Made by a program: the position numbers and the translations under genes. Below, one piece after another: positions 1 to 60,680 of a stretch of DNA of 61,486 bases; the stretch's first letter is position 1, and each line of letters begins with the position of its first letter. The stretch is taken from contig DCGU01000076.1 in NCBI GenBank assembly GCA_002315325.1, positions 1 through 61,486 on the forward strand. The letters run 5' to 3'. Origin of the DNA: Clostridiales bacterium UBA1770 (GTDB lineage: Bacteria > Bacillota > Clostridia > Oscillospirales > CAG-272). The notes under the pieces were generated by a model. That model had not been told where the DNA came from. It worked only from the letters and a program-made list of their open reading frames with translations, and searched no databases.

Positions 1-335
1 TTGGCTTGACAATCTGAGCAGGCTTTTAGGTTCATTGCCACGTGACAATCCCTCAGTCAGCCTAACTCGGCTGACAGCCCCCTTTACACAAGGCGGCCTA
101 CGATTGGTGTGTGTTCACTCGGTGGTTGGAATTTAGTATAGTGGTATGGTGAACTCCTTCCGTCACGACTGCGTCGTGCCACCTCCCCCACACGGAGGAG
201 GCTTGGAGTAACAACAGTCGGCGCAGGCTCCTTCCGTCATCGCTATTGCGATGCCACCTCCCTGCATAGAGTGCGAAGCACACATGCGCCCTTTGGGCTA
301 CTCCCGGAGGGAGGCTTATAGATTCTAAGGTTTAG
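1..335 (-). ncRNA. Unassigned structured RNA-like element, copy A (runs off the left window edge)
   Basis: The reverse complement of 1-335 aligns in blocks with 54550-54960 (+). This includes an identical 31-nt block (260-290 here, 54583-54613 there). It carries two GGGRGG-hairpin-GGAAGGAG modules (150-189 and 226-262). Only a short, non-protein-like ORF overlaps. The family was not identified. Confidence 0.4.
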
Positions 336-9457: not shown

Positions 9458-9459
9458 CA

Positions 9460-9690
9460 GCTGATAGCTGATGGCTGATAGCGGATAGCTGATAGCGGAT
9501 AGCCGATAGCGGATAAAAGATAGCAGATGGCTGATAGCGGATAGCCGATAGCGGATAGCCGATAGCGGATAGCAGATAGCAGATGGCTGATGGCTGATAG
9601 CTGATAGCTGATAGCTGATAGCTGATAGCAGATGGCTGATAGCTGATAGCGGATGGCTTATAGCTAATAGGGGATTGCGGATAGCTGCAG
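9460..9690. repeat. Perfectly phased heptanucleotide tandem repeat (GCNGATR, 32-33 units)
   Basis: Units start at 9460+7k with no indel over 231 bp. GCTGATA, GCGGATA, GCCGATA, GCAGATA and GCTGATG predominate. The tract fills most of the mnmG-rsmG intergenic space. Confidence 0.95.
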
Positions 9691-18292: not shown

Positions 18293-18394
18293 ATCCCTGA
18301 CGGGATTTGTGAAATACGTCTACGACGTGTGAAATTGTCCTTCGGACAGTGAAATACGCCTGCGGCGTGTGAGATGTCCTGCGGACAGTGAAAC
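18284..18394 (+). repeat. 20-nt periodic array: GTGAAAT linkers alternating with short covarying hairpins
   Basis: GTGAAAT occurs at 18284, 18309, 18329 and 18349, GTGAGAT at 18369 and GTGAAAC at 18388. The intervening hairpins are AAATCCC/GGGATTT, ACGTC/GACGT, TGTCC/GGACA, ACGCC/GGCGT and GTCC/GGAC. Confidence 0.8.
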
Positions 18395-48600: not shown

Positions 48601-51600
48601 ATATCTGCGGCAACAGTGCAACCAGTGATGCCGGTGGTGTGTACAACACCGACGCCGGTAAGTTCACGATGAACGGCGGCAACATCTGCGGCAATACCGC
48701 AGTCTACGACGGCGGCGGTGTGAAAAATGACGGCGCGTTCAAGATGAACGGCGGCAGCATTAATTACAACAAAATATCCCAAAATGACGGCGGTGGTTTG
48801 TACAATAACGGCACGTGCACGATGACCGACGGCCTCATCGCCGGCAACAGCACAGGCCATTACGGCGGCGGTCTGTACAATAAAGGCAAGTTTACGATGA
48901 CCGGCGGCAGCATTTCCGGCAATGAAACGCGTACTTACAGCGGTGGTGGTATATTCAATAAAGGCGTCGCGACTATCAGCGGCACAGCCTTGATTGCCAA
49001 TAACACGGCCAAAACCTATGCCGGCGGTATTTACAACTGTTACGATGAAGATAAAAATTGCTATGCAACCATGACGGTCCTCGGTGCTGCCAAGATTGTC
49101 AGCAACACTGCAATTGAATGTGCCGGTGGTGTGTGCAACAATGGTGCGTTCACGATGACCGGCGGGTACATTTCCAGCAACACGTCGAAAGCATGCGGCG
49201 GGTTGTACGTCGAGGGGGGTATCGTGACTCTCGGCGGCACAGCGCAAATCTATGGAAACACCGCAACGGTATGCGGTGACAACCTTGCGATTTCAGCCCC
49301 GATTACTTTGGGTAACGGAACCGATGCCCCTGCCGATGGGATGAATGTCGGTGTTTCACTGATAGATGCGTCGAATTATCCGACGTTCACAATCAAAACA
49401 GGTGCGGTCACGAAAGAAGCAGACGCACTGTGCGCTGAATATTTCCACAGCGATGATGATAAATACGTGGTATTCAACACAGGTTTGCCGACTGCGATGC
49501 AAGTATACGTTGGTAACCCCGTCGTCGTTATCAGTGAAACGAACCTGCAATACGAAACAATCAAAGACGCTATCAAGGTTGCCGGCACGACGCCGTCGAC
49601 GATTAAACTGCTGTGCGACGTAAAAGAGAACGTTACGATTCCTGCAGGCGCTGACATTACGCTTGATTTGAACGGTCACGTTCTTGACCTTGGCGGCAAG
49701 CATATTTTGAACCAGGGTATCCTGACCATTGAAGATTCCGATCCCGATGCGGTACATACCGGTACGCTGACAGATTACGTCGGCGGTATCATTACCAACG
49801 GAAACGCCGGTGACGTTGATCCGATACTGCAGGGGATCGGCGGTGCCATTGTCGTTTGCAAAAACGGCAGTGATGCTGCATTGATTATGAATGCCGGTAC
49901 GATTGTCAATTGTACGGCCCTGAACGGTGGTGCAATCTTTGTCGGCGAAGGCGCAACCTTCACCATGAACGGCGGTACAGTCACGCACTGTACGGCTGAA
50001 CGCGGCGGCGCCATCGGTAACTATAAGGGCTCCGCTACGATTGCCGGTACGATTGCATATTGTACGGCAACAAATTACGGCGGCGCGATTTATAACGAGG
50101 GTGACAACACGACAAAGGCAACCACTATTCTGAATGACGGTGCTGTCATTAATAACTGCGCCGCCTTCGGCGGCACGGACCAAATGGGCGGCGGTATCTT
50201 CAATAAAGGTACGCTGGTCATGAATGCAGGTGCCGTTATTGAAAACTGCACTGCAGAAAAGGGTGCCGGTGTGCACAACCACGGCGCCGATTGGGTTACC
50301 TTCACCATGAACGGCGGTACCATTCAAAACAACACGGCCGCAAAGAACGGCGGCGGTGTGCAGAACTCCGATAAGGCAACCTTTGTGATGAACGGCGGTA
50401 CGATTACCGGTAACGTGGCAAAAGAAAGTCTTGCCGGCGGTGTGTTCACCAAGGGCAAAATGACGGTGCTGGGTACGGCTTCCATTTACGGCAACTATAC
50501 CGGCACGTCCACGCAAAAGGCAAGCAATCTGACTGTTGTTAAGGGTTATCCCGTTACCATTGCTTCTAACACGGGGCTGTTGTACGTTTCCGTGATTGAA
50601 AAAGACGGTTCATACAAGGTAACTACCGGCACGTTTACGAACCCGACGGCAACCGATTACAGCGGTGCCTTCTTTGCGGACGACGCGGACAACTACGAGG
50701 TGCGCCCGTACCGCAATGCGAACGGCATTGCATCTATGCTGGCAGGTAAGACGCCCGTTTGTGAAATCACAAGTGAAGGCGATTATATGGGCAACCGCTA
50801 CGATACGTTCAAACAGGCTGTTCAGGATGCTGCGGCAGCGGCAACGCCGACGACCATCAAGCTGTTACAGCCGCTTGATTTGACCGAAACGTATCAGCTG
50901 CCGGATTATACAACGGTGGTCATCAATGACAAGTGGATTGAAACCAATAGTTATAATCTATACGTAGGAAAGGACTGTGTATTTGAAGTTGCCAGCCAGC
51001 GTGATTTGGAAATTGCCCTTTACGTTGTGCCCAGAAACGGCAGCGATAAATCCTATACGCTGAAATTGACGCAGGATATCCACGTTTCCAAGCCTATCAA
51101 AGTGGATTACGGATATTTCAAATCGCTGACGATTGACGGTAACGGCTATGTCTTTACGGCAACGGCAAGCGATACGGCTCCGGCACAGAGCCACGTTCTC
51201 TATTTCTACAACGACGTAAACTTCTATAAAGAAGTAAAGCTTAATAACGTTGTCATCAACGTCGGCAACGGTTTCCGCGGCGGTATTTGCGTGGATAAGA
51301 CGGTTGACGCTGCGATTATCGCGGTTGACCTTGACAACGTGACGATTATTGCCGACCGTACCAAGGCACCCCTGGGCAGTGATATGACCGAAAAAACGGG
51401 TACGCTCATCCAAAATAACGGGAACGGTATTTTGGTGAAGGGGCAGCTCAAGCTCGTAACGGATGCCTACTGCTGGTCTGCCGTTGACCTGGATAACGGC
51501 AAGGGCAACGTTATGCTGGAATTTAACACCGGGGCTGTCATTTCCGTGACGGATTTGCGTACGGACGCTGTCAAGATCAAAGAACCCCTGGTGGGACTCA

Positions 51601-54329
51601 GCGGTACTTCCGCAAAACAATGGGCTGTCAGAGTTCCGAGCAGCGGTGCACAGCTGCTCTTTGCTACGAAGACCGATCTTAACCCGGATAACGTAACCGG
51701 TATGCGCTGCAAGGACGGTTACGACGTTGAAATCCATACCCATAATTGGGTATATACCGCAACGGGCACGACCATTACGGCCTCCTGTGCCGGTACGGCA
51801 CACGTTTGCCACACCATGGCATTTGCAACGAACACTTCCATTTCCATCAAGGCGCCTACTGCTCTGACCTATAACGGACAGGCCAAGAATGCAACCCTGA
51901 TCGGCACTTCCATCGTCGGTCAGGATGCGCTCCCCGCAATTACCTATCAATATAAGACGGGTGCCAACGGTGCCTATGCGCCTGCGGCGAATATCACCAA
52001 TGCCGGGTATTACAAGGCAAGCGTGACCATCGGCGACGCAACGGTTTACGTAGAATATTACGTGGCGCAGGCTGCTGTCAGCGAGCCGTTCACGGTGGAT
52101 GCCTACGTTTACAACGGCAGCGAGCTGACGCTGTCCCTGATCGGCGTACAAGACTTTATGACGCTGTCCGGTGAAACGAAGGCTGTACTTGCCGGCCCCC
52201 ATACCGTAGAGATTGCACTGGATATCAACCACACGTGGGCAGACGGCGCCGACGGTAAAATTACCTGGGTCATTGACCCCGCAACGGCTGTCATCGACGT
52301 GGATACGAAGGCCATCGTCGCAACGTACGGTGATATCATCGTATTGCCGACGGCTTCTTCCAACGTCGGTACAGTGGCATGCAGCGCTACGGCTGATGAA
52401 CTGATCAATGCCGGTACCTACGTTGTCACCTATCGTGTTGTCACGACGAGCAATTACGCCGGCAGTGAAAAGACCCTGACCGTCACGATTCTTCCCTTGG
52501 CTGTGAGTGAACCCACCGTGGAAGATATCACGCGCACGTATACAGGTGAAGAATACGTTGTCACCGTTTCCGACGTTGCGTCCTACGTAACTGTCGGCGG
52601 CGAAGTGAGCGGTACCGACGCGGGTATCTACGTGATTACCTACACGCTGGATAACAACCACGTATGGGCAAGCGGCAGTGACGGTATCTATACCTGGACC
52701 ATTGATAAGGCAAACGCCGTCATCGACGTCGATACGACCGCAATCGTCAAGACGTACGGCGACGTTTGGACGCTGCCCGTTGCCGTTTCTACCTTCGGTG
52801 ACGTGGCTTGCGATAAGACGATTGCCGATATGAAGAATGCCGGCACCTACGTTGTGACCTATACGGTGGCAAGCACGACGAACTACAACGGTGACGAAAA
52901 GACCATCACCGTGACCGTTAAACCCCTGGCTGTGAACGAACCCGTCGTCACCGGCGCTTACGTATATGACGGCAGCGAAAAGAAGGCTGTTGTCAGCGGT
53001 GTCGCCGATTACATGACGGTGAGCGGCGTGGATAAAGCCACGGCTGCCGGCACCTACACCCTGACCTACACGCTGGATAACAACCACGTCTGGGCAAACG
53101 GCTCCGACGGTATCGTGACCTGGTACGTCAATACCGTACAGGCACAAATTGCCGTGGATTGCACACCCATCGTCGTGACTTACGGTGAAAAAGTTGTGCT
53201 CCCTGTTGCAACGTCCGACTTCGGTACGGTCGTTTGCGATAAGAATGCACAGGATCTGGTCAATGCCGGTTCCTACGTTGTGACCTACACGGTAGAGGGC
53301 ACGGCAGATTACGCAGGACAGGTCGCAATACTAACGGTTGTGATTAATCCCCTGGCTGTGAACGAACCCACGGTGAGCGGTTCCTACAAGTATGACGGTA
53401 CGCCCGTAACGATTACCGTGAGCGGCGTAGAGGAGTATATGACCCTGGAAGGAAGCCTGACGCAGTCCGCAGCCGGTGTTTATTCCGTTTCCTATACGCT
53501 GGATAACAACCACGTCTGGGCAGATGGTTCCGACGGTGTCGTGACCTATGAAATCAAGGCTGCTTCTATTCTCTCCGATACAACGGAGCAGGGCGGTGAC
53601 AAACCCGCCGTGATTGTCGAAACCGAGGACGGCTTCGGCGACGATATCATCCTGGTCGTTGTGGTTGTCGAAGCTACCGCAACCGATGCGGCCGAAAAGA
53701 CGCAGACCATCGTTGATTACGATAACCTGCCCGACGAGAACCTCAAGCTGAAGGACGACGAAAAGCTCGCCGTCGTGTTCGACGTCAAACTCTATCGCAT
53801 TGTGAACGGTGTCTCCTATGAGATTCAGCCGGAAGACATTAAGCCCGGCACGGTTCTCAAGGTTAAGATGCTGATCCCTGCAGAGGTCGACGTGACCAAG
53901 GTCACAAGACTTTTGCACGTGCACGCAGCCGACGATATCGAGGAAATTCCGTTCGATGCATCGCTGATTGATGCGGACGGTTATTATACGATTGAAATCG
54001 ACCGCCTGTCCGAGATTGCCTTTATCGCCTACAAAGACGCTGCGTCCGAGTTCATCCACTGGATTGTATTGGCCCTGTTGATTGCCCTTGTCGTATTCGT
54101 GGCAATCCTGTGGTACGTATACAAGATCCGCGGATTCAAACAGGACGGGGAGCGCAAATTGGCGCCCTATATCGGCTTCGGTTTGCACTTCGTCGGCATG
54201 GTCACACTTGCCTTCTTGGCAGTCTGTGCCCTGTGCTGGATTCTGCTGGGTGTCAACCTGTTGGCCCTGGGACTTTCCGTCGCACTGTACGTAAAGGGTG
54301 CGAAGGAAGACGAAAAGAAGAACGGATAA
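42684..54329 (+). CDS. Giant surface protein (3881 aa): signal peptide, about six beta-helix (PMP/PbH1-like GGxI repeat) modules, internal Hint module, C-terminal Ig-like repeats and multi-TM anchor
   Basis: GGAGGT RBS and signal peptide KVSLILLMILTFVVLLGVNVGAA. There are dozens of GGG[AIV][YIF]...N.G.[FL]T[MI]..G.I.GN repeats. Module heads of the form VYIGNPVAVISETNL...TPSTIKLLCDV.ENVTIPA..DITLDLNG recur. The tail is homologous to that of the 2458-aa protein. Confidence 0.9.
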   Translation: MKNKLTTKVSLILLMILTFVVLLGVNVGAASTEITSGTKTLTLKNSGEYVLNGDVTRNIKIPSYSDVTIDLNGHVLCGTGNGSVITNNGYLTIKDSNPDALHYYVVNADGSWTWNDAADKTNAVLYASLTDAPTAGTVVCVPGGAITGGNASYGGAINNAAKDKDTYLFLDGGNFIGNVAKKGGGAIASQNKTSGSDILFTSTLTMKNNVKVLGNIVKSDANNTMGGGVYVNSIANLDSCDISYNVSVCTADGNRAYTGGLYFGEKATVTNLALQQELSHLTIVGNITLASGDCSVALGGGISFACQGNIRLFSCTVRGNRVLATGLETAGTARAFGGGAYVYNDNLVLTLKDTTVSDNVAKVEAPKDGDALRYAFGGGIYIGHGTLNINDDDVLISGNLADATYKAQGSGVYMAGNTTFIMTAGKITGNTIKAYRDGDVNEEEGAGVIVTYDSCAFKVGGGAVIVSNTDSLGAENNVYLRENAVISTLPNPTDMRIGVTVVNGVGTITDMTSVPVHSYFFADNADYTLMNEGVVQNYVLKSVVPVCVVTDGALQGQKFGRVKDAFDKASQLEITVSLLCDQTECIELQTGAIGTIDLNGYVLSAPDGKSAIVNGALLTVTDLNTVRTSSHKFVYRKTDAWTLTNTVEDAIGVSAIDEDTLEGTIVIVYGSVITGANGNSAIANSGTMVLENVNIIGNDAAGNNGGGITNGDNGILTLVGCIIAGNKAANGGGIYADKATGGNCFAEGTKITMADGTILPIEDVHVGDKVLSFNHETGNYESQKVMLAYRGEAKASYFTLHFADGNELSIVGCHDLFEQSACRYVTVSTENATEFIGKYFYNAASKSWVKLESVTYCDEKVNFYSIYVAGTINCIANGMLTIPDDMETVCNLYEFNADLTVNAEALQAEIDTYGLLAYEDSPYVLSRETFDALNMRFWNILIGRGFMTTEERDYVYNEWYRDLDLQLTNAQLFGSAVLFSAEVPSNLTISGKTLIFGNVNASGAADNVYLCDGKDICVKNPDADMYVGVTLAGKTGVATTAADDSFAKYFFSDNDEYVAFDTGVAVALQVYIGNPVAVISETNLRYASLTDAIKAADTTPSTIILLCDVTENVTIPDAATITIDLDGYVWQSVADTDEHIIDNNGTLTIIDSNTHNQTHNYKVNAKGVWVLTDDEYTKTFASLTDIPAENDVICVPGGVITGSKLVAIANINTLKIAGGNIIGNAIDDVQAGIIHHHSGEMTITAGNIVGNGIHAVVCEGSTLTMDGGCIAYNNGIGVAIDDESSFYLKNGVIRGNSIGGVNNTGTFLMTGGLITGNKAEMGAGVYSCGTITIGGTAQIYGNTATDCGDNLTIYAPIALGTGTDAPADGMIVGISLLDGDDAIKAGAVTKETTVPYAKYFFSDNDAYVAFNTGKPTAMQVYIGNPVAVISETNLGYPSIKDAIEAAGTTPSTIKLLCDVKENVTIPANADITLDLNGYVLSGDGTTSVIVNYGTATITDSNPTSTHYYVVDANGVWQWNDKATKTDAVNLADLTGIPAAGTIICVPGGAITGGAAVNGGGIESKGTLALEDGTVIGNKVTSNGGGVYVFDSNFTMTGGKVVGNVANTYGGGIYVGKQDSVADFTMIDGNIYGNKASYGGGVYVFKANFTMTGGNVVGNKSTTYGGGVYNAGTFTMNGGTVSDNTAVGASKIGTIYKDGGGVYNADKATFIMTGGSITGNAANSGVYNCGTMTVGGAATITDNKNKDGKASNLYLPSGKTITVQDFNGMVGITTQDAPAAGALIAFTGANDANKTYFFSDNDAYSVIKADATLYLGIPVAQIVETGEKYVSIYDAVTAAGTTPTTIKLLCYVQENVTIPAGAQITLDLCGQILEGAGDSSVIVNYGTLTVTDSNPDIEHYYTVVPTGMWDWNDNEIWLSRPFASFTEIPSEGTIICVPGGAITGGAGMLLYEDDPDTYGGCVCNKGTFTMNGGNICGNSATSDAGGVYNTDAGKFTMNGGNICGNTAVYDGGGVKNDGAFKMNGGSINYNKISQNDGGGLYNNGTCTMTDGLIAGNSTGHYGGGLYNKGKFTMTGGSISGNETRTYSGGGIFNKGVATISGTALIANNTAKTYAGGIYNCYDEDKNCYATMTVLGAAKIVSNTAIECAGGVCNNGAFTMTGGYISSNTSKACGGLYVEGGIVTLGGTAQIYGNTATVCGDNLAISAPITLGNGTDAPADGMNVGVSLIDASNYPTFTIKTGAVTKEADALCAEYFHSDDDKYVVFNTGLPTAMQVYVGNPVVVISETNLQYETIKDAIKVAGTTPSTIKLLCDVKENVTIPAGADITLDLNGHVLDLGGKHILNQGILTIEDSDPDAVHTGTLTDYVGGIITNGNAGDVDPILQGIGGAIVVCKNGSDAALIMNAGTIVNCTALNGGAIFVGEGATFTMNGGTVTHCTAERGGAIGNYKGSATIAGTIAYCTATNYGGAIYNEGDNTTKATTILNDGAVINNCAAFGGTDQMGGGIFNKGTLVMNAGAVIENCTAEKGAGVHNHGADWVTFTMNGGTIQNNTAAKNGGGVQNSDKATFVMNGGTITGNVAKESLAGGVFTKGKMTVLGTASIYGNYTGTSTQKASNLTVVKGYPVTIASNTGLLYVSVIEKDGSYKVTTGTFTNPTATDYSGAFFADDADNYEVRPYRNANGIASMLAGKTPVCEITSEGDYMGNRYDTFKQAVQDAAAAATPTTIKLLQPLDLTETYQLPDYTTVVINDKWIETNSYNLYVGKDCVFEVASQRDLEIALYVVPRNGSDKSYTLKLTQDIHVSKPIKVDYGYFKSLTIDGNGYVFTATASDTAPAQSHVLYFYNDVNFYKEVKLNNVVINVGNGFRGGICVDKTVDAAIIAVDLDNVTIIADRTKAPLGSDMTEKTGTLIQNNGNGILVKGQLKLVTDAYCWSAVDLDNGKGNVMLEFNTGAVISVTDLRTDAVKIKEPLVGLSGTSAKQWAVRVPSSGAQLLFATKTDLNPDNVTGMRCKDGYDVEIHTHNWVYTATGTTITASCAGTAHVCHTMAFATNTSISIKAPTALTYNGQAKNATLIGTSIVGQDALPAITYQYKTGANGAYAPAANITNAGYYKASVTIGDATVYVEYYVAQAAVSEPFTVDAYVYNGSELTLSLIGVQDFMTLSGETKAVLAGPHTVEIALDINHTWADGADGKITWVIDPATAVIDVDTKAIVATYGDIIVLPTASSNVGTVACSATADELINAGTYVVTYRVVTTSNYAGSEKTLTVTILPLAVSEPTVEDITRTYTGEEYVVTVSDVASYVTVGGEVSGTDAGIYVITYTLDNNHVWASGSDGIYTWTIDKANAVIDVDTTAIVKTYGDVWTLPVAVSTFGDVACDKTIADMKNAGTYVVTYTVASTTNYNGDEKTITVTVKPLAVNEPVVTGAYVYDGSEKKAVVSGVADYMTVSGVDKATAAGTYTLTYTLDNNHVWANGSDGIVTWYVNTVQAQIAVDCTPIVVTYGEKVVLPVATSDFGTVVCDKNAQDLVNAGSYVVTYTVEGTADYAGQVAILTVVINPLAVNEPTVSGSYKYDGTPVTITVSGVEEYMTLEGSLTQSAAGVYSVSYTLDNNHVWADGSDGVVTYEIKAASILSDTTEQGGDKPAVIVETEDGFGDDIILVVVVVEATATDAAEKTQTIVDYDNLPDENLKLKDDEKLAVVFDVKLYRIVNGVSYEIQPEDIKPGTVLKVKMLIPAEVDVTKVTRLLHVHAADDIEEIPFDASLIDADGYYTIEIDRLSEIAFIAYKDAASEFIHWIVLALLIALVVFVAILWYVYKIRGFKQDGERKLAPYIGFGLHFVGMVTLAFLAVCALCWILLGVNLLALGLSVALYVKGAKEDEKKNG
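44913..45326 (+). other. Hint (intein-like / bacterial intein-like) module inside the 3881-aa protein
   Basis: It starts at Cys744 with CFAEGTKITMADGTILPIEDVHVGDKVLS (Hint block A). It continues with ELSIVGCHDLF (block B-like) and ends with FYSIYVAGTINCIANGMLT (block F/G-like, with no terminal HN plus nucleophile). Confidence 0.65.
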
Positions 54330-54387: not shown

Positions 54388-54428
54388 GCCCAAGGGACTC
54401 TGCATTTCTGCAGGTCCCTTGGGCTTTT
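54388..54428 (+). terminator. Rho-independent terminator after the 3881-aa gene
   Basis: An 11-bp stem (GCCCAAGGGAC / GTCCCTTGGGC) is followed by TTTT. Confidence 0.8.
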
Positions 54429-54436
54429 ACGTCCCA

Positions 54437-54466
54437 TTGACAAAACTACTCCGATAGGAGTATAGT
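54437..54466 (+). promoter_or_regulatory. Sigma-70-type promoter of the structured RNA-like unit
   Basis: TTGACA (54437-54442), an 18-nt spacer, then TATAGT (54461-54466). Confidence 0.5.
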
Positions 54467-54472
54467 TGCCGG

Positions 54473-55040
54473 CTGATTGCAACGCAAACAGACGGCGGGA
54501 TTGCGTAGCAAGACCCGGGCAGTCGTCCTCTTTATCTGTGGCAATGAAATTCGAAGCCTCCTCCGAATGTAGCCGACAAGTCGGCGCATGTGTGCTTCGC
54601 ACTCTATGCAGGGGAGGGGGACCAACGAAGTTGGTGGAAGGAGTTCATTCTTAACTAATGCGTTATCCCACCTGCGGGGGAACACTTTAGCCAAGCCTGC
54701 CTTGTGCAAATGGAAGTAGTCCGCAAGCGGACACGTGTTCGCTACGCAATCTACGTGGGGGACCGCTTCAGCGGTGGAAGGATTGTCGTCTCCCCGTTCC
54801 CCATCCATGGTGCTGAACCTAAAAGCCGTCACCGACGGGGCAATCTCTGCGGAGGGAGTAGGGGGGCCACAGCAGGTGGTGGAAGGAGTTCATCATACAA
54901 ATACGTCTCATTACATCAGGCGAAGAATGACATACACCAACCGTAGGGCGGGTTGCTTGTCGCCCGGGAACCCCCAGCACTCTCTGCGTTCGCGTTGGGG
55001 AACCCCTTGCCCGCCGTTTTTTATGGCGGTTATTTATTAG
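54473..55040 (+). ncRNA. Unassigned ~570-nt structured RNA-like element, copy B
   Basis: It is bounded by its own promoter and a CCGCC-N9-GGCGG hairpin with a T-rich tail (55011-55038). There are three GGGGG-hairpin-GGAAGGA modules (54611-54646, 54756-54785, 54861-54892) with different but always complementary stems. Other hairpins include GCCGAC/GTCGGC and CCGTC/GACGG. Only short overlapping ORFs of non-protein-like composition are present. Confidence 0.5.
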
Positions 55041-55262: not shown

Positions 55263-55378
55263 AAAAAAGGCCTCCGAAGAGACCTTTTTCGCACACACTG
55301 TGCAACCGGTTGCCCGGCGATTTGGATAAATCTTTATTTGAACGCGTAGTGTAATTTCATAGGGGTCTATGTAGTTAC
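55263..55378 (-). ncRNA. tracrRNA: Predicted tracrRNA
   Basis: The minus-strand transcript would read GUAACUACAUAGACCCCUAUGAAAUUACACUAC-GCG-UUCAAAU.... The segment UACACUAC...UUCAAAU pairs with 15 of the 16 visible repeat nt (GUUUGAG-A-GUAGUGUA), leaving a bulge like the SpCas9 repeat:anti-repeat duplex. It ends in a GGUCUC-UUCG-GAGGCC hairpin plus U6 (55263-55290). Confidence 0.6.
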
Positions 55379-55384
55379 ACCAAC

Positions 55385-55413
55385 ATTATAACCAACAAAA
55401 AGGAGTTTGTCAA
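55385..55413 (-). promoter_or_regulatory. Consensus sigma-70 promoter for the tracrRNA, overlapping the cas9 RBS and start region
   Basis: On the minus strand: TTGACA (55413-55408), a 17-nt spacer, then TATAAT (55390-55385). Confidence 0.6.
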
Positions 55414-55414: not shown

Positions 55415-58400
55415 ATGGAAAACAAAAATTATTACCTTGGCTTGGACATTGGTACCGACTCTGTCGGCTATGCCGTCACGGACGAAAACTATAACTTGCT
55501 GCGTTTCCATGGTGAACATGCGTGGGGTGTTACGCTCTTTGATGAGGCGGCACTCTGTACCGATCGTCGTGCGCACCGTACGGCACGCCGCCGCCTTGAC
55601 CGCAGAAAACAGCGTGTGGACTTGCTGCAGGAATTGTTCGCAGTGGAAATCGGCAAAGTTGATCCGCGGTTCTTTATCCGGTTGCAGGAAAGTGCCTTAT
55701 ACCGTGAAGATGCCGGTGATGCATACTCCTTCTTTAATGATGAAAACTACACGGATATTGATTACCACAAGCAATACCCGACGATTCATCATTTGATTGT
55801 TGATTTGATGACGTCAAGCAAGCCGCACGACGTGCGTCTTGTCTATTTGGCGTGCGCGTGGCTGGTCGCACACCGTGGGCATTTCCTGTCCGACGTGAAT
55901 AAGGAAAATATCAGTGAACTGACCGATTTTACCAAAGTATACGATAACCTTTTGGCCTATTTTGCGGAGAATGAATTGCCGGCACCCTGGGGTGACTGTG
56001 ACCGTGCAGCGTTTGCCGACGTTCTTAAACGCAAAACGGGTTTATCTTACAAACAAAAACTCTTGGCGGGCATCTTGTATGCTGACGGCAAACTGCCAAA
56101 GACGGCAGAAGACGACCCCTACGCCAAGGACGTTTTGATCAAGGCTATTTGCGGCAGCAAAGTCAAATGTTCGGATTTGTTCAATAATACCGAATATGAA
56201 GAACTCGATACAAACGGTTTTTGCCTCGGTGCAGATGAAGAAACGCTTGCCGGCGTGATGGCAAATCTGTCCGACGCCGATGCCGATTTGTTTGCTCGGT
56301 TAAAAGCTACGTATGACTGGGCAGTGTTGGTGGATGCACTGAACGGACAGGATTGCATTTCGTTGTCCAAAGTAGCCGTCTACGACCAACATAAAAAAGA
56401 CCTGGCGACACTCAAGTATTTTATCCGCAAATATGCCAACGAAAAATATGCCGAGGTTTTCCGCAAGTCGGCTGAAACCAACTACGTGGCATATTCTTAT
56501 CATAATAAAAACAAGAATATCACGCTGCCCAAGAAAAAGGCAAATAAAGAGGACTTCTGCAAATACGTAAAAGGTATTATTGCAGCCTTTAAGGGCAAAG
56601 TGGAAGAAAAAGATGCCGCTGCGTATGCGGATATGGTCGACCGCCTGGATCTGTTGACGTTCCTGCCCAAACAGCGCGATACGGATAACCGCGTTATCCC
56701 TTACCAGTTGTATTGGTATGAACTGAAAAAGATTATGGAAAAGGCAGGCACGTATCTGCCGTTCCTTTCCGCATCGGATGCGGATGGTATCCGTACGGAT
56801 GAGAAAATTATGGACGTCTTTACGTTCCGCGTCCCGTACTTTGTCGGTCCGTTAAACAAACATTCCAACCGCGGTTGGATTGAACGTCAGCCCGGCAAGA
56901 TTTATCCGTGGAATTTTGAAAAGATGGTTGATTTGGATAAATGTGAAGAAGCGTTTATCAAAAAACTCATCAACTACTGTACCTATATTCCCGGGGAAAA
57001 GGTGCTGCCGAAGGAATCATTGACGTATGCCAAATTTATGGTACTGAATGAGATTAATAATCTCAAGATAGACGAACAGCCCATTTCCGTTGAGCTGAAG
57101 CAAATTATCTATTACGAGCTGTTCTGCAAAAAGCGCCGTGTCACGCGCAAAGCCCTGGAAGAGTATTTGCTTTCTAATAATCATATGGCAAAAGGGCAGC
57201 ACGTTTCCGGTATTGACGAACAAATCAAATCTTCCCTGAAAGCGTACCACGATTTCAAACGTTTGTTGGCCAATAAAGTGTTGACCGAAGAACAGGTAGA
57301 AGCAATTATTGAGCGTATCACCTACGTGGAAAATCCGGCACGCGTTCGAGCGTGGCTCAAGAAGAACTATGCATTCCTATCCGATGCGGACGTGACGTAT
57401 ATTGCAAAGCTGAAATATAAAGATTTCGGCCGTTTGTCCTATGCGTATTTGAACGGACTGGAAGGTTGTGAAACCGATAGCGCCACCGGGGAGGCGGCAA
57501 CGATTCTGTCTGCCATGTGGAACACAAACAACAATCAGATGGAACTCATGTCCGACCGATTTACCTATCGTCAGTCAGTTCTGGATTTGCAGGAGCAATA
57601 CTATGCCACACATTCCAAGACGTTGGCAGAACGGCTTGACGATATGTACCTGTCCAATGCCGTCAAGCGTCCCGTTATCCGTGCCCTGGAGATTACCAAG
57701 GACGTAGTGAAGGCATTCGGCGGCGCACCGGCGAAAGTATTCGTGGAAATGACGCGCGGGGCTACCGAGGACCAAAAGAACAAACGGACCAAAACGCGTC
57801 TGCAGCAATTGCGGGAGCTGTATGAAAAGTGTAAGCAGGATGCGCGCGACTTGAATGCACAATTGGATGCTATGGGCGACAATGCCGATAACTGCCTGCA
57901 GAGTGACGCCCTATTCCTATACTATTTGCAGATTGGTAAATGCCTGTATACCGGCAATACCATTGATATCACGGCATTGAAATCCGGACGTTATAACATT
58001 GAGCATATCTACCCCCAATCGCTTGTTAAGGACGACAGTATCATTAACAATGAAATCCTGGTAGAGTCCAATGCCAACGGCGCTAAGAGTGATAGTTATC
58101 CCGTTGCCGTTGATATCCAAAACAAGCAAGGTGCGCTGTGGTCAATGCTGCATCATGCAGGGCTGATGAGTGACGAAAAGTATAAACGTCTAACCCGCAC
58201 CACGCCGTTTTCCGCGGATGAAAAAATGGGCTTTATCAATCGTCAGCTGACCGAAACGTCACAGTCCACCAAGGCAGTTGCCACGTTGTTGAAGGAGCTG
58301 TATCACACGGAAATCGTCTACGTCAAGGCACGCCTGACGTCGGAATTCCGCCAGGAATACGGTCTGTTAAAATCACGCACCGTCAACGATTTGCACCATG

Positions 58401-59482
58401 CCAAGGATGCCTATTTGAATATCGTGACCGGTAACGTCTACAGTATGCGGTTTACAAAACAATTCTTCCGCATTGACGAACAGTATAGTTTGAACACGTG
58501 GGCCCTGTTCGGCCATTCCGTGATTTGCGGCGGCAAGACTGTATGGACGCCTGCTATGCTGGATACCGTTAAGAAAACGGCTGTGATGGATACGGCGCAT
58601 TTGACGCGGTACGCTTATTGCAAACATGGTCCCCTGTTCGACTTGATGCCGCTCAAGGCGGGGCAGGGACAGATTGAGCAAAAGGCCGGAAAGAGCGTTG
58701 AAAAATACGGCGGATACAATAAGGCTGCCATTTCGTTCTGCTTGATTGTTGGGTATAAGACGGATAAAGCCAAAGACGTTATGATTATGCCGGTTGAATT
58801 ATTGTTTGCCGACCGTGTGCTTGCGTCTGCTGATTTTGCCGCAACGTATGCACAGGATAAAATCGGCCGTATGCTGAACAAACCGGTGCACGATATCACG
58901 TTCCCGTGCGGGATGAGAATGATTCGAATTAATACGGTATTTGCATTGGATGGGTTTAGAGGTTATTATACCGGAATTACGGCAACAAACTGGTGTTTCT
59001 CATCCTTTATGCCTTTATCATTGAAAGGTGAATGGCAGAATTACATCAAACATTTGGAGTCTTTTGCTGAGAAGACAAAAAAGAATCCGGGTTTGACCTA
59101 TCAAAAAACGTACGATAAGATTTCGTGTGAAAAGAATATCGAATTATATGACGTTCTTTGTGATAAATTAGCGAATAGTATTTATCAGAAGCGTCCCGGC
59201 AATCCCGTTGACACAATAGGAAAAGGAAAGAGCAAGTTTGCCACACTTGACGTCAAGGTACAAGTGCAACAATTGCTTTCCTTGTTACAAGTATTCGGCC
59301 CCACTTCAGGCGGAATTGACTTGACGCAAATCGGCGGTGCAGCAAAAGCTGCAACGACACGAATTGGCCTTTCTATTACAACGTTAAGCCATTCATTTAC
59401 ACATAGTATAGTTATTATTGATCAATCGCCTTCCGGTTTATGGGAGTCCCAATCTATCAATCTGCTTGATTTAATTAAGTAA
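55415..59482 (+). CDS. cas9: Type II-A CRISPR endonuclease Cas9
   Basis: 1355 aa behind an AAGGAG RBS. It has RuvC-I YYLGLDIGTDSVGYAV, RuvC-II VFVEMTRG, HNH NIEHIYPQSLVKDDSIINNEILVESNANGAKSD and RuvC-III NDLHHAKDAYLN. Confidence 0.95.
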   Translation: MENKNYYLGLDIGTDSVGYAVTDENYNLLRFHGEHAWGVTLFDEAALCTDRRAHRTARRRLDRRKQRVDLLQELFAVEIGKVDPRFFIRLQESALYREDAGDAYSFFNDENYTDIDYHKQYPTIHHLIVDLMTSSKPHDVRLVYLACAWLVAHRGHFLSDVNKENISELTDFTKVYDNLLAYFAENELPAPWGDCDRAAFADVLKRKTGLSYKQKLLAGILYADGKLPKTAEDDPYAKDVLIKAICGSKVKCSDLFNNTEYEELDTNGFCLGADEETLAGVMANLSDADADLFARLKATYDWAVLVDALNGQDCISLSKVAVYDQHKKDLATLKYFIRKYANEKYAEVFRKSAETNYVAYSYHNKNKNITLPKKKANKEDFCKYVKGIIAAFKGKVEEKDAAAYADMVDRLDLLTFLPKQRDTDNRVIPYQLYWYELKKIMEKAGTYLPFLSASDADGIRTDEKIMDVFTFRVPYFVGPLNKHSNRGWIERQPGKIYPWNFEKMVDLDKCEEAFIKKLINYCTYIPGEKVLPKESLTYAKFMVLNEINNLKIDEQPISVELKQIIYYELFCKKRRVTRKALEEYLLSNNHMAKGQHVSGIDEQIKSSLKAYHDFKRLLANKVLTEEQVEAIIERITYVENPARVRAWLKKNYAFLSDADVTYIAKLKYKDFGRLSYAYLNGLEGCETDSATGEAATILSAMWNTNNNQMELMSDRFTYRQSVLDLQEQYYATHSKTLAERLDDMYLSNAVKRPVIRALEITKDVVKAFGGAPAKVFVEMTRGATEDQKNKRTKTRLQQLRELYEKCKQDARDLNAQLDAMGDNADNCLQSDALFLYYLQIGKCLYTGNTIDITALKSGRYNIEHIYPQSLVKDDSIINNEILVESNANGAKSDSYPVAVDIQNKQGALWSMLHHAGLMSDEKYKRLTRTTPFSADEKMGFINRQLTETSQSTKAVATLLKELYHTEIVYVKARLTSEFRQEYGLLKSRTVNDLHHAKDAYLNIVTGNVYSMRFTKQFFRIDEQYSLNTWALFGHSVICGGKTVWTPAMLDTVKKTAVMDTAHLTRYAYCKHGPLFDLMPLKAGQGQIEQKAGKSVEKYGGYNKAAISFCLIVGYKTDKAKDVMIMPVELLFADRVLASADFAATYAQDKIGRMLNKPVHDITFPCGMRMIRINTVFALDGFRGYYTGITATNWCFSSFMPLSLKGEWQNYIKHLESFAEKTKKNPGLTYQKTYDKISCEKNIELYDVLCDKLANSIYQKRPGNPVDTIGKGKSKFATLDVKVQVQQLLSLLQVFGPTSGGIDLTQIGGAAKAATTRIGLSITTLSHSFTHSIVIIDQSPSGLWESQSINLLDLIK

Positions 59483-59483: not shown

Positions 59484-60353
59484 ATGAGTTGGCGGACAGT
59501 CATCATCGCTAATCGGTGCAAGCTTGACGTCAGCATGGGATATTTGGTAGTCCGTGGAGAGGATACCAAACGCATCTTTTTGGATGAAATAGGGATACTG
59601 CTGATTGAAAACCCGGCAGTATCCCTAACTGGGTGCCTGATTGAAGCACTGACAGAAAAGAAAATCAAAACCATATTTTGCGACAGCAAGCGTAATCCGA
59701 TGGCAGAATTGGTGCCGCATCACGGCAGTCATGATTCATCGCTGAAAATACGGACGCAATGCCAGTGGCGCGATGACGTAAAGGCACGCATATGGCGGGA
59801 AATTGTGATCGAAAAAATCAAGCGGCAGGCATCGTTCCTCAAACAAATCGGCAAGATAAATGAGAGTGAACTGATTTCTTCCTATATAGAGCAGGTGGAA
59901 CCCGGTGACGTTACTAATCGGGAGGGACATGCTGCCAAGGTGTATTTTAATGCCCTGTTCGGTATGTCTTTTACCAAGAGTGCCGATTGCCCCATCAACG
60001 CTGCATTGAACTATGGATACAGTTTGATTTTATCAGCGGTAAACAGGGAAGTATCTGCAAATGGGTATTTAACGCAGATTGGCATATTCCATGACAATAT
60101 GTTCAATCATTTCAATTTGAGCTGCGATCTCATGGAACCTTTTCGTATTATCGTTGACCGCTACGTTGTGGCAAATATGCCGACGCAATTTGAAAAGGAT
60201 GAAAAACATAATATTTGGGGCATCTTGAATCAAACGGTCTATATTGAATATACTCGGCAAACGGTTTTAAATGCCATCAAGATATACGTGCACAGCGTAT
60301 TTGATGCTATCAATGATAATGATTTATCACGAATCAAGTTTGTACAGGAATAA
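59484..60353 (+). CDS. cas1: CRISPR integrase Cas1 (type II)
   Basis: 289 aa with an N-terminus and length typical of type II Cas1. It contains the NAALNYGYS and EPFR blocks. Confidence 0.9.
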   Translation: MSWRTVIIANRCKLDVSMGYLVVRGEDTKRIFLDEIGILLIENPAVSLTGCLIEALTEKKIKTIFCDSKRNPMAELVPHHGSHDSSLKIRTQCQWRDDVKARIWREIVIEKIKRQASFLKQIGKINESELISSYIEQVEPGDVTNREGHAAKVYFNALFGMSFTKSADCPINAALNYGYSLILSAVNREVSANGYLTQIGIFHDNMFNHFNLSCDLMEPFRIIVDRYVVANMPTQFEKDEKHNIWGILNQTVYIEYTRQTVLNAIKIYVHSVFDAINDNDLSRIKFVQE

Positions 60354-60359: not shown

Positions 60360-60680
60360 ATGAGTTATCGATTTATGCGTACAATCGTGATGTTTGACTT
60401 GCCGACAGAGACGGCAGAAAACAAGCGCAACTATCGCCATTTTGTGCGGGCACTTGAGAAAAATGGGTTTATGATGATGCAGGAGTCTGTCTACATCCGT
60501 TTGTTATTGACACCATCCGCGCAAAAACTTGCGGTGGACGCTATCCGTAAATTGAAACCACCGGATGGACTGGTCCAAGTACTAACTGTCACAGAAAAGC
60601 AATTTGCTAATATGGAATATATGGTTGGTGAAGCGCACAGTGAAGTGATTGACAGTGATGAGCGGCTCATCATTTTGTGA
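60360..60680 (+). CDS. cas2: CRISPR protein Cas2
   Basis: 106 aa with the MSYRFMRTIVMFDLP ferredoxin-like start and QESVY motif. Confidence 0.9.
   Translation: MSYRFMRTIVMFDLPTETAENKRNYRHFVRALEKNGFMMMQESVYIRLLLTPSAQKLAVDAIRKLKPPDGLVQVLTVTEKQFANMEYMVGEAHSEVIDSDERLIIL

What the first reader, a model, noticed from the sequence alone, without database searches (positions are those of the whole stretch)
54437..55040. Independent ~570-nt promoter-to-terminator unit with no ORF but modular, covarying hairpins: unassigned large structured RNA candidate
Seen: TTGACA-18-TATAGT lies just after the terminator of the giant gene, and the unit ends in a hairpin with a T-rich tail. Inside, the module GGGGG(R)-[5-6-bp hairpin]-GGAAGGA(G) occurs three times with different stems (ACCAAC/GTTGGT, ACCGC/GCGGT, CCAC/GTGG). 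The diverged copy at 1-335 has two more modules with yet other stems (CATCGC/GCGATG, CACGAC/GTCGTG). Pairing is therefore kept while the sequence changes. Another helix also covaries between copies (GCCGAC/GTCGGC versus GCCC/GGGC). A 31-nt block (GGCGCATGTGTGCTTCGCACTCTATGCAGGG) is identical in both copies. CCUCC and GGAGG/GGGGG tracts could form long-range or pseudoknot pairings. Inference: this is a structured noncoding RNA family rather than a protein gene or a simple repeat. I cannot assign it from memory to any riboswitch, RNase P, tmRNA, 6S, SRP or group I/II intron consensus. Its size and likely host clade are in the range of the large ornate RNAs (ROOL, GOLLD and OLE classes), but that is only a hypothesis.
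Basis: partly seen in the sequence, partly recalled or inferred. Interest (0 to 1): 0.7.

Follow-up and report, generated by a model that had tools for sequence, protein, structure and literature searches.

The report
Cluster of dispersed hairpin repeat units
The proposed large ornate RNA is a cluster of three or four copies of a short two-to-four-hairpin repeat unit that is scattered through the intergenic DNA of many gut Clostridia, including Faecalibacterium prausnitzii; I found no Rfam family or paper that describes it.

Summary
Window 54437-55040 has no credible ORF. It has a strong promoter-like site and a terminator-like hairpin. It holds repeated G-run/hairpin/GGAAGGAG modules whose stems differ but stay paired. 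A diverged copy lies at window 1-335 on the minus strand, with an identical 31-nt block.

No Rfam family matches, including ROOL, GOLLD, OLE and raiA. The modules are units of a dispersed repeat family. A pattern built from the unit found about 45 family loci in genomes of Eubacteriales, Oscillospiraceae, Ruminococcaceae and Faecalibacterium. Some genomes gave several loci, and many loci sit at contig ends. A covariance model then found 105 units in 338 kb.

Each unit is AAAG-CCUCCCUCC/GGGAGG helix (H1), a variable hairpin (H2) and a purine tail (GGAAGGAG). H1 sometimes encloses two extra hairpins. Both helices covary strongly. Units lie between genes, in both orientations, mostly as inverted pairs, and rarely in divergent promoter regions. 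No transposase or target-site duplication was seen.

The source genome has a third cluster just past the CRISPR array. Only cluster A has its own promoter and terminator.

Best reading: a REP/BIME/BOX-like mosaic repeat, probably co-transcribed. A stand-alone RNA at locus A is not excluded.

The parts
54437..54466 (+). sigma-70-like promoter TTGACA-18-TATAGT just after the giant gene's terminator
   Evidence: one of six >=11/12 matches in 61 kb versus 0.9 in shuffles
54468..54496 (+). 5' hairpin GCCGGCUGAUUGC-AAC-GCAAACAGACGGC at the predicted transcript start (specific to copy A)
   Evidence: MFE fold; sequence
54538..54553 (+). linker module GUGGCAAUGAA-N5 that precedes a unit head; also in cluster B (window 18-41, minus) and cluster C (L004 ~17370-17390, minus)
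   Evidence: (I3)
54553..54643 (+). unit A1, long-form type-1 unit: AAGCC-CCUCCUCC (H1 5' arm 54557-54564), hpA 54572-54585, hpB 54586-54609, H1 3' arm 54611-54619, H2 54621-54635, tail GGAAGGAG 54636-54643
   Evidence: family model R2 27.2 bits, E 4.4e-5; MFE shows H1 enclosing hpA+hpB, then H2, then a free tail; coordinates
54583..54613 (+). 31-nt block identical to window 260-290 (minus); it is hairpin hpB (GCAU-GU-GUG-CUUCG-CAC-UCU-AUGC) plus flanks
   Evidence: I1
54692..54783 (+). unit A2, diverged long-form unit: head AAGCCUGCC, hpA GUCCGC-AA-GCGGAC 54719-54732, hpB-like 54732-54757, H2 ACCGC-UUCA-GCGGU 54762-54775, tail GGAAGGAU
   Evidence: the 27-nt GGGGGACCGCTTCAGCGGTGGAAGGA is also in L058, a Ruminococcaceae MAG
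54796..54827 (+). inter-unit linker GUUCCCCAUCC..GAACCUAAAAGCC, also present upstream of cluster C
54820..54888 (+). unit A3, diverged unit: head AAAAGCCGUC, H2 (G)CCAC-AGCAG-GUGG(U) 54866-54880, tail GGAAGGAG 54881-54888
   Evidence: D1: 85% identical to A1's 3' half; weak partial hit at 54822-54858
54935..55010 (+). 3' module CACCAACCGUAGG + GGGCG/CGCCC hairpin + CCCC../..GGGG hairpin. It is homologous to B3 and is a decayed type-2-like unit.
   Evidence: A/B alignment; B3 hit by R1/R2; related CCACCACTATCGTAGG in L098
55011..55029 (+). terminator-like hairpin CCGCCGU-UUUUU-AUGGCGG followed by UUAUUUAUUA
228..318 (-). unit B1, long-form type-1 unit (hpA 288-298, hpB 264-287, H2 238-253, tail 228-235)
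   Evidence: R2 49.9 bits, E 3.9e-11
154..205 (-). unit B2, short-form type-1 unit AAGCCUCCUCC-GUGU-GGGGGAGG-UGG-CACGAC-GCA-GUCGUG-AC-GGAAGGAG
   Evidence: R2 59.2 bits, E 1.3e-13
46..101 (-). unit B3, type-2-like unit AGGCCGCC..GGGGGCU-GUCAGCC-GAGUU-GGCUGAC-UGAGGGA
   Evidence: R1 16.9 bits, E 0.007; R2 13.6 bits
1..41 (-). start of a further linker/unit (GUGGCAAUGAACCUAAAAGCCUGC at 18-41); the contig ends inside the repeat cluster
   Evidence: the window is the whole 61,486-nt contig

Best explanation
Window 54437-55040 (cluster A) and window 1-335 on the minus strand (cluster B) are clusters of a dispersed, modular, hairpin-forming intergenic repeat. A third cluster (C) lies just beyond the CRISPR array of the same genome. 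The family is widespread in gut Clostridia: Oscillospiraceae, Ruminococcaceae, Faecalibacterium and unnamed Eubacteriales.

The repeating entity is a 45-95-nt unit:
- a 5' AAAG;
- a C/U-rich arm (CCUCCCUCC) that pairs with GGGAGG to form helix H1;
- optionally two further hairpins (hpA, hpB) inside or next to H1;
- a short linker (UGG or GGGA);
- a variable 4-6-bp hairpin H2;
- an unpaired purine tail (GGAAGGAG in type 1, UGAGGGAG in type 2).

Units are strung together with linker modules. In most genomes they form inverted type-1/type-2 pairs. In this genome they form direct arrays of two to four.

In kind this is a REP/BIME-, REPIN- or BOX-like mosaic repeat, not one large ornate RNA.

Shown: family membership, multi-copy dispersal, intergenic location, conserved pairing.

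Inferred:
1. The units spread or are maintained as single-strand hairpins, by a mobilising enzyme supplied in trans or by recombination, without target-site duplication.
2. They are carried into RNA by read-through from the preceding gene and fold there into stable hairpins. These could buffer mRNA 3' ends as REP and BOX elements do. The exposed GGAAGGAG could pair with up to 8 nt of the 16S rRNA 3' end.
3. At locus A a strong promoter and a terminator happen to bracket the cluster, so about 545-560 nt of RNA made almost wholly of these units is probably produced there.
For: Family and dispersal:
About 45 are clearly one family, and all of these are Clostridia.
- Several genomes were hit repeatedly: JAZODX01 four times, JAZRIQ01 and JAZRLS01 three times each, and five others twice. 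At least 14 of the 45 lie within 500 nt of a contig end. One 3.1-kb contig has units at both ends.
- Model R1 found 105 units in 338 kb.
- Model R2 scores the window's own units: B2 59 bits, B1 50 bits, A1 27 bits.
- It also shows a third cluster in the same genome at L004 17248-17369, minus strand.

Structure:
- 93.4% of cells are paired and 12 of 14 pairs carry double changes. The covariation score is 0.288 against 0.112 in shuffles (0 of 500 reach it) and 0.03-0.07 in the slid controls.
- MAFFT plus RNAalifold, not fitted to any model, gives the same two helices. Nine of 11 pairs are compensatory, and U-G outnumbers C-A 22 to 6 in H1.
- MFE folds of individual units give the same architecture.

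Context:
- All clusters are intergenic. Of 28 with both neighbours called, 17 lie between same-direction genes, 9 between convergent genes and only 2 between divergent genes.
- There is no orientation bias relative to genes.
- Most clusters are inverted pairs.
- The genes between clusters are ordinary housekeeping genes.
- Clusters B and C have no promoter of their own.

Not a known RNA.
Against: - Cluster A has a near-consensus promoter and a terminator of its own.
- Nine type-1 units from eight genomes carry a conserved TTGTTT/TTGTCT-17-TGnTATAAT promoter-like site ending 11 nt upstream. No type-2 unit does. This looks more like a transcribed gene than inert repeat DNA.
- Four different species representatives carry 100% identical 94-nt units. 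That is more conservation than neutral selfish DNA should show.
- No transposase, RAYT-like gene or target-site duplication was found, so mobility is inferred only from distribution.
- In this genome the units are in direct arrays, not the inverted pairs typical of REPIN/BIME.
- Copy number per complete genome was not measured.
- No expression data were available.
Confidence: 0.7

Rival explanations
1. Locus A is a real stand-alone non-coding RNA of about 550 nt, built from three or four repeat modules. It would act in trans, for example as a sponge that displays several exposed GGAAGGAG (Shine-Dalgarno-like) tails to 30S subunits, to C-rich small RNAs or to an RNA-binding protein. The dispersed units elsewhere would be the same functional RNA module used in cis.
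For: - Strong promoter at 54437 and a terminator at 55011-55029 bracket the cluster, with no ORF.
- A conserved promoter-like site lies 11 nt upstream of nine type-1 units in eight genomes.
- The unpaired purine tail and the AAAG head are conserved in sequence.
- U-G is tolerated more than C-A in H1.
- The sense strand folds better than the antisense strand in 58 of 63 units.
- Unit sequences are nearly identical across species.
Against: - Clusters B and C in the same genome have no promoter.
- Units occur in both orientations relative to neighbouring genes, mostly as inverted pairs, so one partner would be antisense in any transcript.
- The whole-region fold is no more stable than shuffles.
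- The sense/antisense energy difference could simply reflect G-richness.
- No expression data are available.
Confidence: 0.17
2. The units are the terminal inverted repeats of a classical MITE, mobilised by a DDE transposase of a full-length IS element that has the same ends.
For: Type-1 and type-2 units usually form an inverted pair with heads (AAAGCC / AAAGGC) outside and tails inside, spaced 40-60 nt apart. They are multi-copy and break assemblies. JGI contig L001 continues past cluster B into sequence that could be an IS end.
Against: - No target-site duplication flanks 13 inspected composites.
- No transposase lies next to any cluster in about 340 kb.
- Single units and direct arrays also occur, including all three clusters in the source genome.
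- The ~50-nt ends carry conserved internal hairpins with compensatory changes. A double-strand-binding transposase would not require that.
Confidence: 0.08
3. The region is a single large ornate structured RNA of the ROOL/GOLLD/OLE type, or a new one of that size class.
For: Its size (~570 nt), lack of an ORF, G+C-rich hairpins and gut/rumen Clostridia host. Possible 5'-3' closing pairings exist: 54487-54499 with 55010-55022, and 54499-54509 with 54741-54751.
Against: - No Rfam match, even at E<=10.
- The conserved unit is 45-95 nt and occurs alone, in pairs or in arrays of different number in different places.
- Copy B lacks the middle ~240 nt of copy A.
- The fold z-score is -0.42.
- The long-range pairings are absent from copy B.
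Confidence: 0.02
4. The element belongs to the adjacent type II-A CRISPR-Cas system, for example as a long tracrRNA form, a leader or a regulator of cas9.
For: It lies about 375 nt upstream of cas9. A related cluster (C) lies right after the last CRISPR repeat in inverted orientation, so the two bracket the whole locus.
Against: - The tracrRNA is accounted for on the minus strand at about 55378-55263. It has its own 12/12 promoter, a full anti-repeat and a terminator.
- The element has no complementarity to the repeat.
- Cluster B and about 45 loci in other genomes have no CRISPR context.
Confidence: 0.02

Closest known systems
REP / BIME elements of enterobacteria (repetitive extragenic palindromes in bacterial interspersed mosaic elements)
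   Same: Short G+C-rich imperfect palindromes in many copies. They lie strictly between genes, mainly at 3' ends and between convergent genes. They are assembled with linker motifs into mosaic clusters of variable composition, often in alternating orientation. They have no coding capacity and no target-site duplication. They are co-transcribed and form RNA hairpins (my own knowledge of the family; compare PMC2817692 as listed).
   Different: There is no sequence similarity. The unit is larger (45-95 nt, two to four hairpins) with conserved single-stranded head and tail motifs. No GTAG-plus-palindrome signature consistently precedes the main hairpins. No RAYT gene was found. The host is Clostridia rather than Proteobacteria. 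In the source genome the units are in direct, not alternating, orientation.
REPIN doublets mobilised by RAYT transposases (Pseudomonas and others)
   Same: Most family members elsewhere are inverted doublets of two related units with a 40-60-nt spacer. Such a doublet could fold as one long hairpin in single-stranded nucleic acid.
   Different: No RAYT or Y1 transposase was detected in the sequence held (a weak test). The two halves are distinct subtypes (type 1 and type 2). The window's clusters are not doublets.
BOX elements of Streptococcus pneumoniae (boxA-boxB(n)-boxC)
   Same: A Firmicutes intergenic repeat built of modules in direct order, with a variable number of the middle module. It is predicted to fold into stable RNA structures and is co-transcribed with neighbours. 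The window's clusters have the same layout: a 5' linker module, two or three units, then a 3' module.
   Different: Sequence relationship was not tested and none is expected. BOX is restricted to streptococci, whereas this family spans many genera of Oscillospirales.
STAB-SD mRNA stabilisers (cryIIIA of Bacillus thuringiensis)
   Same: A Shine-Dalgarno-like sequence (GAAAGGAGG there, GGAAGGAG here) that is not followed by a start codon. By my own pairing to the Bacillus-type 16S 3' end, the tail could form 8 bp including one G-U.
   Different: STAB-SD is a single 5'-UTR element with proven 30S-dependent stabilisation. Here ribosome binding is speculation, and most copies lie downstream of genes.
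ROOL, GOLLD, OLE and raiA large or ornate RNAs
   Same: Non-coding, structured and found in Firmicutes and gut or rumen metagenomes, with a length of several hundred nt at locus A.
   Different: No covariance-model match. The conserved entity here is a short dispersed module, not a single-copy RNA of several hundred nucleotides.

Membership tests
ROOL / GOLLD / OLE / raiA / HEARO (Rfam families) | Match to the family covariance model at or near its gathering score | tested here: not met
   Rfam 15 at gathering scores over the whole window found only Gut-1 at 18282-18360. E<=10 scans of both copies gave only noise: mir-8186 on the terminator hairpin, YenS, radC, sR10.
ROOL / GOLLD / OLE-like large RNA (as a kind) | Full-length homologs in which the whole several-hundred-nt architecture, including long-range helices, is conserved | tested here: not met
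   Copy B lacks ~240 nt of copy A. Homologs elsewhere are single 45-95-nt units or pairs. The long-range complements of A are absent from B.
REP/BIME-type interspersed mosaic repeat | Many copies per genome, dispersed | tested here: inconclusive
   Three clusters in ~64 kb of the source genome. Two to four loci per genome in eight genomes from a truncated scan with a restrictive pattern. Extra clusters occur in 8-kb blocks. No complete genome could be scanned, so no copy number was obtained.
REP/BIME-type interspersed mosaic repeat | Extragenic location, enriched at gene 3' ends and depleted in divergent promoter regions | tested here: met
   17 tandem, 9 convergent and 2 divergent among 28 clusters, using crude ORF calls. 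Clusters A, B and C each follow the terminator or stop of the preceding gene.
REP/BIME-type interspersed mosaic repeat | Imperfect palindromes whose pairing, not sequence, is conserved | tested here: met
   (compensatory changes in 12 of 14 and 9 of 11 pairs).
REP/BIME-type interspersed mosaic repeat | Association with a RAYT (REP-associated Y1 transposase) gene flanked by the repeats, and a conserved GTAG-type guide tetranucleotide | tested here: inconclusive
   tblastn with an IS608 TnpA-like sequence written from memory found nothing in 0.97 Mb, but one gene per genome would easily be missed. GTAG precedes hpA in A1, A2 and B1 only. AAAG precedes H1 in nearly all units.
MITE | Terminal inverted repeats plus target-site duplication, and an autonomous IS with the same ends | tested here: not met
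   Inverted type-1/type-2 pairs exist, but no duplication flanks 13 inspected composites. No IS was seen. The window's clusters are direct arrays.
tracrRNA of the adjacent type II-A system | Anti-repeat complementary to the CRISPR repeat | tested here: not met
   The repeat start has no match in the element with up to 3 mismatches. The anti-repeat lies at ~55337-55379, transcribed from the minus strand.
CsrB/RsmZ-type protein-sponge RNA | Multiple GGA motifs presented in hairpin loops | tested here: not met
   The GGA-containing GGAAGGAG tracts lie 3' of hairpin H2 in unpaired linkers, not in loops.
Riboswitch or 5' leader | Consistent position upstream of, and in the same orientation as, a regulated gene class | tested here: not met
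   No ORF follows A before its terminator. Units show no orientation bias (12 same, 10 opposite) and their neighbours are diverse.
BOX element (S. pneumoniae) | Sequence homology to boxA/boxB/boxC | not tested
   No BOX reference sequence was available in the tools. Only the modular layout is compared.

The most novel reading that the evidence does not exclude
The unit could be a new, widespread structured RNA module of gut Clostridia, including Faecalibacterium prausnitzii. It would comprise an H1 helix that sequesters an anti-SD-like/SD-like pair, a variable H2, and an exposed 'super-Shine-Dalgarno' tail. It would work at the RNA level, for example by recruiting 30S subunits or a protein to protect or insulate transcripts. 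Locus A would then be a dedicated ~550-nt multi-module RNA with its own promoter and terminator, and promoter-bearing copies elsewhere would be small RNA genes or mobile promoter/5'-stabiliser cassettes.
Probability: 0.2. Interest if true: 0.7.

Novelty: new member of a known kind. Interest (0 to 1): 0.4.

Why it matters
The result removes a false lead: this is not a new ROOL/GOLLD-class RNA. It also exposes a repeat family for which I found no Rfam family and no paper, although the literature search was small.

The family is strongly structured and extremely conserved. It pervades intergenic DNA of Oscillospirales, a dominant and medically important gut clade that includes F. prausnitzii.

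Such repeats break metagenomic assemblies. Here both ends of the 61-kb contig lie in repeats: this family on the left and the CRISPR array on the right. They also seed spurious ORF calls. They can mediate rearrangements, and two copies in inverted orientation bracket the CRISPR-Cas locus here. In other bacteria such repeats modulate mRNA stability and termination.

A covariance model for the family would improve annotation. Public F. prausnitzii transcriptomes could then be used to ask what the units do.

Tried and rejected
- blastn of copy A against the plasmid and phage collections gave nothing relevant.
- The exact 21-mer from the 31-nt block found nothing in genome contigs or metagenome contigs. 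This hairpin sequence is therefore private to this lineage. The source records themselves appear to be masked or absent.
- A six-frame pseudo-protein query, meant to catch spurious ORFs called over homologous elements, gave no hit.
- Two viral-contig patterns gave one chance hit inside a coding region and nothing else.
- The synteny route failed. The nearest GH92 homolog is 55% identical and the nearest MnmG 73%, so the lineage has no close sequenced relatives and I dropped this approach.
- Protein-coding or pseudogene reading: rejected.
- tracrRNA or CRISPR leader: rejected.
- Transposase search in the held loci: negative but weak.
- The canonical composite from L118 has no plasmid match and only three short matches in unannotated faecal 'Bacteriophage sp.' contigs.
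- Five literature searches for a prior description found none.
- I did not use the second metagenome scan, because the genome scan had already given enough homologs.
Full report
**1. What is at the coordinates**

The window is a complete 61,486-nt NCBI contig. It comes from an uncultured Clostridia bacterium that has no close sequenced relatives. The nearest MnmG is 73% identical and the nearest GH92 is 55% identical.

The contig covers the origin-proximal chromosome: holA, ahcY, mnmG, rsmG, a parS cluster, parB and serS. It also carries three giant repeat-rich ORFs and a type II-A CRISPR-Cas operon.

The finding lies between the terminator of the 3,881-aa ORF (hairpin 54388-54424) and the tracrRNA/cas9 region.

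- TTGACA-18-TATAGT at 54437-54466, and a terminator-like hairpin at 55011-55029.
- No ORF with any Pfam similarity, and no protein-level homolog for any of the six frames.
- Three G-run/hairpin/GGAAGGA modules with different, fully paired stems.
- A second, shorter copy on the minus strand of window 1-335 with two more modules, a covarying GC hairpin and a 31-nt identical block.

The promoter is probably real. Only six sites of at least 11/12 occur in the whole window, against 0.9 in shuffles. The others sit before the 2,458-aa ORF, before the tracrRNA and near other gene starts.

Two points qualify the observation:
- Copy B has neither a promoter nor a terminator.
- The 574-nt region folded whole is no more stable than shuffled sequence, with z = -0.42 on the plus strand and -1.02 on the minus strand.

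**2. It is not a known RNA, and it is not part of CRISPR-Cas**

Rfam 15 at gathering thresholds finds only a Gut-1 RNA elsewhere in the window. Permissive scans of both copies give only chance-level matches.

The tracrRNA is fully accounted for on the minus strand. It has a 12/12 promoter at 55413-55385, an anti-repeat to the 36-nt repeat GTTTGAGAGTAGTGTAATTTCATAGGGGTCTCAAAC, and a terminator at 55290-55263. The element has no complementarity to the repeat.

**3. Internal anatomy**

Each unit starts with AAGCC, followed by a pyrimidine run (CCUCCUCC). This run pairs with a downstream GGGGAGG to form helix H1. Then come GGKGG, the variable hairpin H2, one or two bases, and GGAAGGAG.

In A1, B1 and A2, H1 encloses two extra hairpins. 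hpA has a GC stem and an AA loop. hpB has a 4-bp lower stem, an internal loop, a 3-bp upper stem and a CUUCG loop. The 31-nt identical block is hpB. MFE folds of single units reproduce this layout.

Linker motifs (GUGGCAAUGAA-N5-AAGCC; GUUCCCCAUCC...) and a 3' module (GGAAGGAGUUCAYC...CACCAAYCGUAGG...) recur between clusters.

**4. Homologs**

Exact searches with the 31-nt block found nothing.

I then built a pattern from motifs shared by the paralogous units: AAGCCTCC-N30-60-GGKGG-N14-18-GGAAGGAG.

About 45 of the hits are plainly one family. All of these come from Eubacteriales, Clostridia, Oscillospiraceae, Ruminococcaceae or Faecalibacterium genomes from human, ruminant, deer, rabbit and other gut sources. 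They include a complete F. prausnitzii chromosome. The remaining hits are scattered chance matches in unrelated phyla.

Several genomes were hit two to four times. At least 14 family loci lie within 500 nt of a contig end, and one 3.1-kb contig is bounded by units at both ends. These are the marks of a multi-copy repeat that breaks assemblies.

The window contig itself starts inside cluster B. Two Logan contigs that encode the identical GH92 stop at B's other edge.

**5. The family model**

I built a covariance model (R1) from ten short units. It found 105 units at E<0.01 in 338 kb.

Two subtypes emerge:
- Type 1: AAAGCCUCCCUCC-loop-GGGAGG-UGG-[H2]-AC-GGAAGGAG.
- Type 2: AAAGGCUCCCUCC-GGGA-GGGAGC-UG-[H2]-C-UGAGGGAG.

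Long forms carry inserts either within or next to H1 (hpA+hpB) or in H2.

The retrained model R2 scores the window's units at 59 bits (B2), 50 bits (B1) and 27 bits (A1, E 4e-5). A3 and a type-2-like B3 give weak hits. A2's H2 region is identical over 27 nt to a unit in a Ruminococcaceae MAG.

R1 also revealed a third cluster (C) in the same genome, on the JGI contig that extends beyond the window. It lies at L004 17248-17369 on the minus strand, immediately after the 18-repeat CRISPR array, and shares the linker and 3' modules of A and B. Cluster C has no promoter and sits just downstream of a bidirectional terminator.

No Rfam family matches 16 of the related loci.

**6. Is the pairing conserved?**

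Yes.

On the model-derived alignment:
- 93.4% of cells are standard pairs, against 78.3% in shuffles.
- 12 of 14 pairs carry changes on both sides.
- The covariation score is 0.288, against 0.112 in shuffles (0 of 500 reach it) and 0.03-0.07 when partners are slid.

That alignment is fitted to the structure. I therefore also ran MAFFT plus RNAalifold on 35 distinct short units. This independently predicts H1 and H2, with compensatory changes in 9 of 11 pairs. One of these is a clean C-G/G-C split (16 each) at the base of H1 that separates the two types.

In H1, U-G (22) outnumbers C-A (6) (19 versus 8). The sense strand folds about 2 kcal/mol better than the antisense in 58 of 63 units.

This suggests selection on a single-stranded hairpin in each unit's own orientation. 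It cannot distinguish RNA from single-stranded DNA, and the energy difference is confounded by G-richness.

**7. Genomic behaviour**

- All clusters are intergenic.
- Of 28 clusters with both neighbours called, 17 lie between same-direction genes, 9 between convergent genes and 2 between divergent genes.
- Type-1 units are as often antisense as sense to neighbouring genes: 12 in the same orientation and 10 in the opposite.
- Most clusters are inverted type-1/type-2 pairs with heads outward and tails inward, 40-60 nt apart.
- The intervening genes are ordinary housekeeping genes.
- Thirteen inspected composites have no flanking duplication.
- No transposase was seen, although my tblastn check is weak.

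This is the profile of REP/BIME, REPIN or BOX-type repeats. It is not the profile of a single-copy RNA gene.

In the source genome the clusters are direct arrays of two to four units. Each lies just downstream of the preceding gene and in the same orientation as it.

**8. Points that keep an RNA-gene reading alive**

- Locus A's own promoter and terminator.
- A conserved TTGTTT/TTGTCT-17-TGnTATAAT box ending 11 nt before the head of nine type-1 units in eight genomes, and before none of the 47 type-2 units examined.
- 100% identity of a 94-nt unit among four species representatives.
- The conserved unpaired GGAAGGAG tail. By my own pairing to the Bacillus-type 16S 3' end, it could form 8 bp including one G-U, which recalls STAB-SD stabilisers.

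I therefore give about 0.17-0.2 to a stand-alone or RNA-level functional reading.

**9. Verdict**

The best-supported explanation is a cluster of a dispersed mosaic hairpin repeat that I could not find described. It is a new family of a known kind. At this locus it probably ends up in RNA because of a flanking promoter.

Mobilisation and RNA-level function are inferred, not shown.

Noticed in passing
window 55263-55413 (minus strand): The tracrRNA of the type II-A system. It has a 12/12 promoter at 55413-55385, an anti-repeat (the plus strand at ~55337-55379 reads like a degenerate CRISPR repeat) and a terminator at 55290-55263. cas9 is at 55415-59482, cas1 at 59484-60353, cas2 at 60360-60680 and csn2 at 60691-61362. 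The first CRISPR repeat starts at 61471 and is cut by the contig end.
   Followed up: partly
window 54437-55040 (+) and L004 17248-17400 (-), about 62.66-62.8 kb in window numbering: Repeat clusters A and C bracket the whole tracrRNA-cas9-cas1-cas2-csn2-CRISPR locus in inverted orientation. Cluster C abuts a degenerate terminal CRISPR repeat. This could mark a recombination-prone or formerly mobile CRISPR-Cas island, or it could be chance.
   Followed up: partly
window 11268-14213: Fourteen copies (up to 2 mismatches) of TGTTTCACGTGAAACA, which I recognise from my own knowledge as the parS consensus. All lie in a ~3-kb stretch with few ORFs upstream of parB (15362-16258). They include a 103-nt tandem array at 11623-11946. 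The expected number by chance is 0.07.
   Followed up: partly
window 9459-9687: A heptamer tandem repeat AGCTGAT, about 33 copies, between the end of mnmG (9457) and the start of rsmG (9706).
   Followed up: no
window 18282-18360 (+); also L091 4038-4114 (-): A Gut-1 RNA (Rfam RF01706, 76 bits) overlaps the end of ORF 17642-18292. A second Gut-1 lies 1.6 kb from a repeat unit in an unrelated Clostridia MAG.
   Followed up: no
window 23138-30514, 30652-36420, 42684-54329: Three giant ORFs (2,458, 1,922 and 3,881 aa) are full of internal repeats and have almost no Pfam signal. The only hit is a weak Hint-module match at residues 736-823 of the largest. Each region is accompanied by FtsX-like permease paralogs; 18569-19118 is ~75% identical to 37788-38337.
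   Followed up: no
L012, L052, L065 (two units), L066, L083, L086, L118, L120: A conserved promoter-like box TTGTTT/TTGTCT-17-TGnTATAAT ends 11 nt before the AAAGCC head of type-1 units. It overlaps a terminator-like hairpin (CGGCAGAGAA..TTCTCTGCCG). The whole arrangement recurs at different loci in different species.
   Followed up: partly
L006, L012, L029, L110, L112, L118, downstream of the unit pair: A further conserved ~60-nt motif (TAGGGGTATGGGCTTTGCCCGAWGCCTTTGTAATACAAAGGCGAAACTGGCGATAAA) follows the inverted pair and precedes small, unrelated ORFs. Other recurrent motifs (for example TTCTCCGCTAAGAATGCAGAG) occur nearby. These genomes seem to hold several co-occurring repeat families.
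   Followed up: no
L012, L029, L066, L068: A 94-nt type-1 unit is 100% identical in four different species-representative genomes.
   Followed up: partly
window 54499-54509 and 54741-54751: A perfect 11-nt complement (GATTGCGTAGC / GCTACGCAATC) links the 5' region of A to hairpin hpB of unit A2. A 13-nt, 85% complement links 54487-54499 to 55010-55022. Neither has a counterpart in copy B.
   Followed up: no
L048 5640-5785 and L063 957-1102 (Faecalibacterium prausnitzii): An orthologous unit pair lies in the same intergenic position in two Faecalibacterium species representatives. They differ by only 2-3 nt. An adjacent small hairpin shows a compensatory change (UUCGU..ACGAA versus UUUGU..GCAAA).
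   Followed up: no
L001 12660-12732 (beyond window position 1): The JGI contig continues 74 nt past the window start into unrelated AT-rich sequence and then also ends. Something repeated, possibly an IS end, lies next to cluster B.
   Followed up: no
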